From Eledone cirrhosa (Eukaryota): DNA of 64,000 nt. Shown one piece after another: positions 23,327-24,950 of this stretch. Both the position numbers and the translations under genes were made by a program. The DNA is taken from positions 85,994,001-86,058,000 of the forward strand of contig OZ024745.1 in NCBI GenBank assembly GCA_964016885.1, read 5' to 3'. Numbering within the stretch: position 1 is the first letter of the stretch; every line of letters starts with the position of its first letter. The notes beneath the pieces are model-generated. The model was not told the origin of the DNA. It ran no database searches and saw only the letters and a list, made by a program, of their open reading frames with translations.

Positions 23327-23329
<3 letters not shown>

Positions 23330-24945
23330 TAATTTAATATATCAACTAACATAGGCGCACAGATGTACGTCCATGCCAGCAAATACACAGGTTATGTCAT
23401 AGTACCTAGGTGGTTCAATGCAGGAAGGTGCAGAACAATAATATAAAAGACGTAAAATAAGAAAATATTTTTCAAAAAATTTTTTTTAAATTTTTTACTT
23501 ACTTACTTAAATTTTCACTCCAACTAATCAGTTTCTGCAATGGGATAAAGACAGTTACATAATCCAACTGTCGAGAATTCATTGCGTCATCAGGGAGTCT
23601 ATTCTCAGCTGAGCCTCCAGGCAATGCGCGGACACTGGCGGCTCATATAAAAATAATAATTCGGTAGAAAGAACAGCTAGGCGAGGACTGGATTCTATGT
23701 ACTGAAATTCTCACTGCTTCCAATCAAATGGCCGATTCTAAAGAATCAATCACGTGACATAGAGGCTAGTTAGAAGGAATGGGATGGTAAGATGACTGAC
23801 GCCTACTAACACCCCAAAAAAAATTTTGAAGTGGTTTTGGCAGGTTTGCTCGACAAATCAGTGATTTGGAGATAAATATAGATAATTTAATATATCAACT
23901 AACATAGGCGCACAGATGTACGTCCATGCCAGCAAATAGACAGGTTATGTCATAGTACCTAGGTGGTTCAATGCAGGAGGGTGCAGAACAATAATATAAA
24001 AGACGTAAAATAAGAAAATATTTTTCAAAAAATTTAAAAAAAATTTTTTACTTACTTACTTAAATTTTCACTCCAACTAATTAGTTTCTGCAATGGGATA
24101 AAGACAGTTACATAATCCAACTGTCGAGAATTCATTGCGTCATCAGGGAGTCTATTCTCAGCTGAGCCTCCAGGCAATGCGCGATTTTTATATGAGCCGC
24201 CAGTGTCCGCGCATTGCCTGGAGGCTCAGCTGAGAATAGACTCTCTGATGACGCAATGAATTCTCGACAGTTGGATTATGTAACTGTCTTTATCCCATTG
24301 CAGAAACTAATTAGTTGGAGTGAAAATTTAAGTAAATAAGTAAAAAAAAAAATTTTTTTTAAATTTTTTGAAAAATATTTTCTTATTTTACGTCTTTTAT
24401 ATTATTGTTCTGCACCCTCCTGCATTGAACCACCTAGGTACTATGACATAACCTGTGTATTTGCTGGCATGGACGTACATCTGTGCGCCTATGTTAGTTG
24501 ATATATTAAATTATCTATATTTATCTCCAAATCACTGATTTGTCGAGCAAACCTGCCAAAACCACTTCAAAATTTTTTTTGGGGTGTTAGTAGGCGTCAG
24601 TCATCTTACCATCCCATTCCTTCTAACTAGCCTCTATGTCACGTGATTGATTCTTTAGAATCGGCCATTTGACTGGAAGCAGTGAGAATTTCAGTACATA
24701 GAATCCAGTCCTCGCCTAGCTGTTCTTTCTACCGAATTATTATTTTTATATGAGCCGCCAGTGTCCGCGCATTGCCTGGAGGCTCAGCTGAGAATAGACT
24801 CCCTGATGACGCAATGAATTCTCGACAGTTGGATTATGTAACTGTCTTTATCCCATTGCAGAAACTAATTAGTTGGAGTGAAAATTTAAGTAAGTAAGTA
24901 AAAAATTTTTGTAAGATTTTTTGAAAAATATTTTCTTATTTTACG

Positions 24946-24950
<5 letters not shown>
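23327..24950. mobile_element. Non-autonomous ~555-bp HHR-bearing unit (family G): partial tandem on -, partial tandem on +
   Basis: Period 553 on -, 558 on +; inversion point near 24184; no ORF; four HHRs. Confidence 0.85.
24798..24879 (+). ncRNA. Type I HHR with extended stem II (other copies: 24240-24321 +, 23517-23598 -, 24070-24151 -)
   Basis: actcc CTGATGA cgcaatg..gacagtt-loop-aactgtc..cattgca GAAA ctaattag TT ggagt. Confidence 0.85.

What the first reader, a model, noticed from the sequence alone, without database searches (positions are those of the whole stretch)
23327..24950. ORF-less ~555-nt HHR-bearing monomer in tandem and inverted array (retrozyme-like)
Seen: four near-identical HHRs, two per strand, spaced 553 and 558 nt apart. 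There is no ORF, the unit end (ttatctatat) abuts either (AT)n or the start of the next unit, and the inversion point is near 24184. Known: metazoan non-LTR retrozymes are tandem HHR repeats that yield monomeric linear or circular RNAs and are thought to be mobilised by PLEs. Inference: cleavage at consecutive HHRs would release a ~555-nt RNA able to circularise, i.e. a young non-autonomous parasite of the PLE machinery.
Basis: partly seen in the sequence, partly recalled or inferred. Interest (0 to 1): 0.78.

Follow-up and report, generated by a model that had tools for sequence, protein, structure and literature searches.

The report
Ribozyme repeat hitchhiking on Penelope transposons
This is one of thousands of copies of a gene-less, roughly 555-letter repeat that carries a hammerhead-ribozyme motif, and the shape of its insertions suggests it is likely copied into the genome by the enzymes of Penelope-like jumping genes, possibly from a circular RNA that has not yet been seen.

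Summary
Observation largely confirmed: four type I hammerhead (HHR) motifs, two per strand, 553 and 558 nt apart, no ORF, inversion at 24183/24184. One correction: only the left end is 'ttatctatat'; the right end stops about 118 nt earlier. The unit is an ORF-less dispersed family (2,714 exact core matches; 12,847 for the wider family), with subfamilies down to about 66% identity that keep unit length, ends and compensatory HHR stems. In 139 loci examined it is never the regular terminus of a coding element. Insertions end in (AT)n at one of two fixed sites, A or B. Of 60 head-to-head arrays, 54 are A+B, none A+A or B+B, 6 unresolved. The two arms share haplotype (0.5% apart against 4.2% between loci). 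This is the Penelope 'tail at one end' footprint, so mobilisation by a Penelope-like RT/GIY-YIG priming twice on one RNA is likely. No helper family was identified. A circular template is plausible (139 of 157 arms cross the cleavage junction, 265 of 266 junctions precise) but unproven: no RNA was examined and the HHR is predicted slow and dimer-dependent. Verdict: new member of the animal non-LTR retrozyme kind, with an unusually clear mechanistic footprint.

The parts
23289..23322 (.). (AT)n target run, left
   Evidence: sequence, TRF
23323..24183 (-). Left arm, about 1.55 units, 3' end = long end B, 5' end at monomer position 445
23323..23441 (-). 'Tail' between end A (monomer position 81) and end B (about 199), about 118 nt; present at one outer end only
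23517..23598 (-). HHR 1; core at 23593-23587; predicted cut between 23522 and 23521; one A>G change in the stem III palindrome
23522..24074 (-). Complete monomer, cleavage site to cleavage site, 553 nt
24070..24151 (-). HHR 2; core at 24146-24140; predicted cut between 24075 and 24074
24183..24184 (.). Head-to-head junction of the two 5'-truncated arms (monomer positions 445 and 421)
24184..24955 (+). Right arm, about 1.4 units, 3' end = short end A
24240..24321 (+). HHR 3; core at 24245-24251; predicted cut after 24316
24317..24874 (+). Complete monomer, 558 nt; folds far better than shuffles (z -6.1)
24407..24430 (+). Conserved hairpin just 3' of end A; candidate RT recognition site (inferred)
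24615..24630 (+). Internal strand predicted to pair with both sides of the cleavage junction
24637..24649 (+). Conserved E-box-like motif; candidate internal promoter element (label recalled, function untested)
   Evidence: 143 of 151 full units; 7,567 genomic matches
24798..24879 (+). HHR 4; core at 24803-24809, branched helix II, 12-nt palindromic helix III, GUU triplet; predicted cut after 24874
24956..25040 (.). (AT)n target run, right

Best explanation
It is one insertion of a dispersed, ORF-less ~555-nt repeat with a type I hammerhead motif, likely a non-autonomous retroelement (retrozyme) copied by the RT and GIY-YIG nuclease of a Penelope-like element. Shown: fixed unit, two fixed 3' ends in (AT)n, one of each in every resolved inverted array, both arms of one haplotype. 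Inferred steps: (1) a tandem copy is transcribed, perhaps from an internal promoter; (2) two HHRs pair through their palindromic helix III and cut after GUU; (3) the monomer is ligated to a circle; (4) a PLE protein, probably a dimer, cuts both strands of (AT)n and each 3' end primes on the same RNA, one at site A and one at site B, using 4-5 nt of UAUA(U) homology; (5) each RT runs round the template for up to 13 units; (6) the two cDNA ends are joined head to head, or one arm is lost. PLE mobilisation about 0.85; circle as main template about 0.55.
For: A+B in 54 of 60 inverted arrays, 0 A+A, 0 B+B, 6 unresolved (96 loci); single-arm copies 23 A and 11 B, so independent choice would give at most half A+B; 11 of 11 more where both ends were called among 43 further loci. 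136 of 148 A/B ends followed by (AT)n. Partner arm is nearest or tied in 28 of 37 testable loci, 0.5% against 4.2%; units within a locus 0.44% against 4.2% between loci. 139 of 157 arms cross the cleavage junction, longest arm 7,339 nt, 265 of 266 junctions precise; a cleaved linear monomer could give at most about 200 nt from these start sites. HHR covariation. Monomer folding z -3.8 to -6.1 in 5 of 5 sequences tested. The autonomous PLE at 45418-50790 has the same layout: HHR-like motif, short end at +75, tail end at +141. In vitro, a PLE protein cuts and extends both strands of AT-rich DNA and starts at two RNA sites whose interval is the tail (PMC11167929).
Against: No RNA examined, so neither cleavage nor a circle is shown. 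The HHR has a GUU triplet, an extra base on each side of helix II and a helix III that does not fold alone, so it may cut slowly; in vitro a PLE used unprocessed RNA and 8 of 9 Xenopus retrozyme dimers did not cleave. Locus-private variants recur within some arrays (L031, L032, L033, L035, L038, L040), which a single monomer circle does not explain. No helper PLE shares sequence with the unit among three active families tested. In 9 of 37 loci some other locus was closer than the partner arm. The tail (about 118 nt) is longer than the published 30-40 nt.
Confidence: 0.58

Rival explanations
1. Same element and same PLE machinery, but the template is a linear, incompletely cleaved multimer (or linear monomers joined by precise template jumps); circles are rare or a by-product.
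For: Weak, dimer-dependent HHR; unprocessed RNA was the main substrate for a PLE in vitro; 5 of 157 arm 5' ends lie exactly at the cut site (0.6 expected) and 14 within 11 nt (3.1 expected), so some templates were linear and cut; recurring private variants at lags of 2-3 units.
Against: A lineage copied only from linear multimers with internal starts would shorten each round, yet arms reach 13 units (inference). Junctions are precise in 265 of 266 cases, which argues against sloppy jumps. The 5'-end peak at the cut site is matched by a peak at positions 36-47, a poly(A)/poly(U) hairpin, so it is not unique.
Confidence: 0.28
2. The unit is the long pLTR of a rare autonomous PLE, and these are its truncated tandem and inverted ends.
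For: Layout matches PLE pLTRs. In 3 of 139 loci (L084, L102, L171) the unit is joined directly to PLE sequence. Only 139 of several thousand loci were read.
Against: End B runs on into the same non-coding unit in all 151 full units. The three junctions involve three different PLE families at unrelated internal positions. Three landmarks round the unit occur in similar proportions genome-wide (12,847; 8,681; 7,567) and in 97 sampled loci (178; 121; 102). The whole unit is conserved across subfamilies 30% apart.
Confidence: 0.07
3. Single insertions were expanded later at DNA level (slippage, unequal crossing-over), as a minisatellite; the tandem units say nothing about the RNA template.
For: A block of three units seems repeated in L032; period-2 patterns in L033. 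The 2026 preprint offers this route for retrozyme arrays.
Against: Arrays are dispersed, short and 5'-truncated at varied points on both arms; units differ mainly by independent length changes in A/T runs; 42 of 60 inverted loci have both arms crossing the junction.
Confidence: 0.07

Closest known systems
Metazoan non-LTR retrozymes (Cervera and de la Pena 2020, PMC7229834; Li et al. 2026, 10.64898/2026.07.22.740005)
   Same: ORF-less tandem monomers each with a type I HHR, low GC, strongly self-paired RNA, many genomic copies, PLEs in the same genome; dimer-dependent HHR as in axolotl.
   Different: Larger than the 170-400 nt RNAs of the 2020 paper, though inside the 51-972 bp range of the preprint; mostly head-to-head inverted arrays with a strict A+B end rule ('inverted' has 0 occurrences in PMC7229834); HHR with GUU triplet and long branched helix II; circRNA not shown here; no pLTR homology to a coding PLE found.
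EN+ Penelope-like elements, Poseidon/Neptune organisation (PMC8557442, PMC3846280, PMC11167929)
   Same: 5' truncation, tandem plus inverted structure, tail at one end, two start sites, AT-rich or (TA)n targets, HHR with palindromic helix III upstream of the ends.
   Different: No RT or GIY-YIG ORF; tail about 118 nt against 30-40 nt; both start sites share UAUA(U) with the target, whereas the anole PLE starts at a non-homologous site.
Non-autonomous Chlamys elements such as MRC1 (PMC8557442)
   Same: Non-coding PLE parasites forming multicopy head-to-tail insertions.
   Different: That clade lacks canonical HHRs and its non-autonomous members resemble their helpers at the 3' end; here an HHR is conserved and no helper match was found.

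Membership tests
non-LTR retrozyme | Tandem monomers, each with a type I HHR | tested here: met
non-LTR retrozyme | No coding capacity; not the terminus of a coding element | tested here: met
   139 loci read, a rare helper is not excluded
non-LTR retrozyme | Strongly self-paired monomer RNA | tested here: met
   z -6.1; -3.8 to -5.8 in four other subfamilies
non-LTR retrozyme | HHR self-cleaves | not testable with these tools
   Indirect only: covariation; excess of 5' ends at the site, not unique
non-LTR retrozyme | Expressed as monomeric linear and circular RNA | not testable with these tools
   No RNA run listed for this sequence
non-LTR retrozyme | Dispersed by retrotransposition | tested here: met
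   Fixed 3' ends, variable 5' truncation, copies on many contigs
non-LTR retrozyme | Target-site duplications | tested here: inconclusive
   Targets are (AT)n, so a duplication cannot be read
autonomous EN+ PLE | RT plus GIY-YIG ORF | tested here: not met
non-autonomous PLE derivative | Tandem/inverted insertions with a tail at one end | tested here: met
non-autonomous PLE derivative | Sequence shared with the pLTR of an autonomous PLE | tested here: inconclusive
   None with three active families; other PLE families of the genome were not surveyed in full
Rfam hammerhead families | Score at or above gathering threshold | tested here: not met

The most novel reading that the evidence does not exclude
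A long-lived clan of circular-RNA parasites: the ~555-nt circle is copied by both subunits of a Penelope RT dimer at once, each locked to its own start site, so every inverted array is a double rolling-circle product of one RNA molecule; an internal strand splints the cut ends for ligation and shields the joint in the circle. The arrays would then be a direct genomic record of the unresolved PLE transposition cycle.
Probability: 0.35. Interest if true: 0.78.

Novelty: new member of a known kind. Interest (0 to 1): 0.52.

Why it matters
That PLEs move animal retrozymes is so far argued from co-occurrence and pLTR phylogeny (PMC7229834; 2026 preprint). Here the insertion structure itself carries the PLE signature, with a strict rule (one short and one long end per inverted array, both arms from one haplotype) that constrains how PLE tandem and inverted insertions form, a step the cited papers call undefined. 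A short, defined RNA with two mapped start sites and three candidate helper families with intact ORFs makes the rolling-circle question directly testable in vitro.

Tried and rejected
Rfam: no HHR hit. RNA evidence: no RNA holder listed; contigs of three runs of one sample, of unknown kind, were laid and showed only family variation. Helper search: two patterns built on loose ends gave 1 and 2 matches, all non-coding relatives; profile searches of 64 and 16 loci of three intact PLE families (775, 830, 784 aa frames) gave nothing; a PLE next to the unit in L145 is separated by (AT)n; direct joins to PLE sequence in L084, L102 and L171 involve three different families and were not accepted as naming a helper. 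L1-type twin priming (one arm stopping where the other starts) was rejected because 5' ends are spread round the unit. The junction-spanning internal helix is 98.2% paired but its covariation does not beat shuffles (49 of 500); it ranks in the top 17% of long-range duplexes in 17 of 18 units, not in L129: a lead only. Rows handled by hand: two fragments of diverged subfamilies (in L033, L081) were left out and one mis-merged 5' end (L098) was corrected. 23 of the 60 inverted loci had too little arm overlap. The 38 best-hit loci are biased to long young arrays; the 57 position-ordered loci give the same rule (31 A+B of 34). Earlier findings: none in this genome or by sequence. Supplements of the papers were not read and may list similar elements.

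Full report
Observation. The four hammerhead cores lie at -23593, -24146, +24245 and +24803, and the window holds no other copy of the unit. No frame in the array exceeds 57 codons. Numbering the unit from the base after the predicted GUU cut, the left arm runs from position 445 through one full 553-nt monomer to position about 199 (end B); the right arm runs from 421 through a 558-nt monomer to position 81 (end A). Both ends abut (AT)n.

The ribozyme. Rfam has no match. By anatomy it is a type I HHR: 5-bp helix I, CUGAUGA core, helix II opening with an invariant G-C pair flanked by an extra base on each side and carrying a branch, GAAA, a 12-nt palindromic helix III, and a GUU triplet. Across 25 copies from many subfamilies, 98.9% of 375 cells pair, with 46 double-sided changes; no shuffle of 500 reached that and slid controls fell to 30-51% (related sequences inflate such scores, and helix III never varies). 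The palindrome does not fold alone but pairs with a second copy at -9.0 kcal/mol, as described for dimer-dependent PLE and amphibian HHRs (passages of PMC4209133; PMC7229834). Activity is untested.

The family. In the 3.0-Gb genome a DNA search gave 915 candidates, 39 scored, 185 matches, the listed full-length ones at 94-100% identity. Exact motifs occur 2,714 times (subfamily core) and 12,847 times (wider family), controls 0. I fetched 138 family loci: 38 best hits, 57 in genome order, 3 variant loci and 40 wider-family loci. The 151 full units form 21 clusters of 508-583 nt down to about 66-70% identity, all alignable end to end and well folded. No PLE ORF follows or precedes the unit in a regular way. 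Three loci join it directly to PLE sequence, each a different family at a different internal point.

The insertion rule. Among 96 loci (38 + 57 + window) 60 are head-to-head arrays: 54 have one A and one B end, none A+A or B+B, and 6 have an arm with a non-standard or unseen end; single-arm copies are 23 A, 11 B and 2 other. Among 43 further loci, all 11 with both ends called are A+B. 136 of 148 A/B ends run into (AT)n, and both ends finish in TATA(T), so priming probably uses micro-homology (inference). In 37 loci with enough overlap the arms differ by 0.5% against 4.2% to other loci, and the partner arm is nearest or tied in 28. So both arms likely come from one RNA, each primed at its own site. 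An optional 30-40 nt tail at one end of inverted PLE insertions is known (passages of PMC8557442; PMC3846280), and the anole PLE protein cuts and extends both DNA strands and starts at two RNA sites that bound the tail (parts 1-2 of 4 of PMC11167929). The intact-ORF PLE family in this window shows the same layout, with ends 75 and 141 nt after an HHR-like motif. I found no statement of a strict one-of-each rule, or of it in a retrozyme, in the passages read from five searches; subscription papers and supplements were not seen.

Circle or multimer. Start sites at 81 and 199 cannot yield long copies from a cleaved linear monomer, yet 139 of 157 arms cross the cleavage junction, 265 of 266 junctions are precise and one arm is 7,339 nt. 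Units within a locus differ by 0.44%, mostly in A/T runs. That fits rolling-circle copying, but also copying of an uncut multimer. Against a pure monomer circle: private variants recur within six arrays, and 5 of 157 5' ends sit exactly at the cut site (0.6 expected), though an equal peak lies in the A/U hairpin at 36-47. A conserved internal strand can pair across the cut site, but its covariation does not beat shuffles. No RNA run was listed. In the 2026 preprint (parts 1-3 of 5 read) only 1 of 9 retrozyme dimers cleaved in vitro.

Helper. Three young PLE families with intact frames of 775, 830 and 784 aa exist; none shares detectable sequence with the unit. The helper is unidentified.

Verdict. 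A real, ORF-less HHR retroelement that works like a non-autonomous PLE and meets every genomic criterion of an animal non-LTR retrozyme that could be tested; the RNA criteria could not be tested. It is a new member of a known kind. Its value lies in the end rule and the shared-template arms, which make the PLE and retrozyme copying mechanism testable.

Noticed in passing
window 45418-50790: Frameshifted full-length Neptune-type PLE (RT plus C-terminal GIY-YIG; clade label from recall of its CxxC motif) with direct and inverted pLTRs, one short end and one tail end about 66 nt longer; its family has many intact 775-aa copies.
   Followed up: partly
window 50689 (+), 50261 (-), 45588 (-), 5939 (+): Two Neptune-type PLE families carry an HHR-like motif whose core reads UUGAAAA, i.e. 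U3-A8 in place of C3-G8, with a CCGG palindrome and UA cut site; 29 identical copies of one form in fetched loci. Standard HHR descriptors would miss it. Activity untested.
   Followed up: partly
window 22911-23288: Inverted pLTR-only remnant of the 784-aa PLE family, with a short end and a roughly 39-nt tail end; the array studied here sits in its (AT)n.
   Followed up: partly
window 7717-15099: PLE with RT and C-terminal nuclease-like region (ORF 9277-11106) inside 831-nt inverted arms; family has intact 830-aa copies in tandem units of about 6.65 kb.
   Followed up: partly
L045:3842-5776; L051; L034:721-1204; L105:2890-3547: Other unrelated HHR repeats with spacings of about 486, 310, 483 and 657 nt: the genome likely hosts several retrozyme-like families.
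   Followed up: no
window 29086; 35300, 39185, 43164, 58726, 58858, 63355, 63488: A canonical minimal type I HHR at 29086 and a repeated HHR-like motif in short inverted elements at the other positions.
   Followed up: no
window 52018-55245: Frameshifted RT-bearing element (PF00078 hits), probably a LINE.
   Followed up: no
L053:4190; L112:1965-1972; L082:1810; L044:3008: Arms that begin exactly at the predicted cut site; in L053 and L112 a short palindrome is centred on it.
   Followed up: partly
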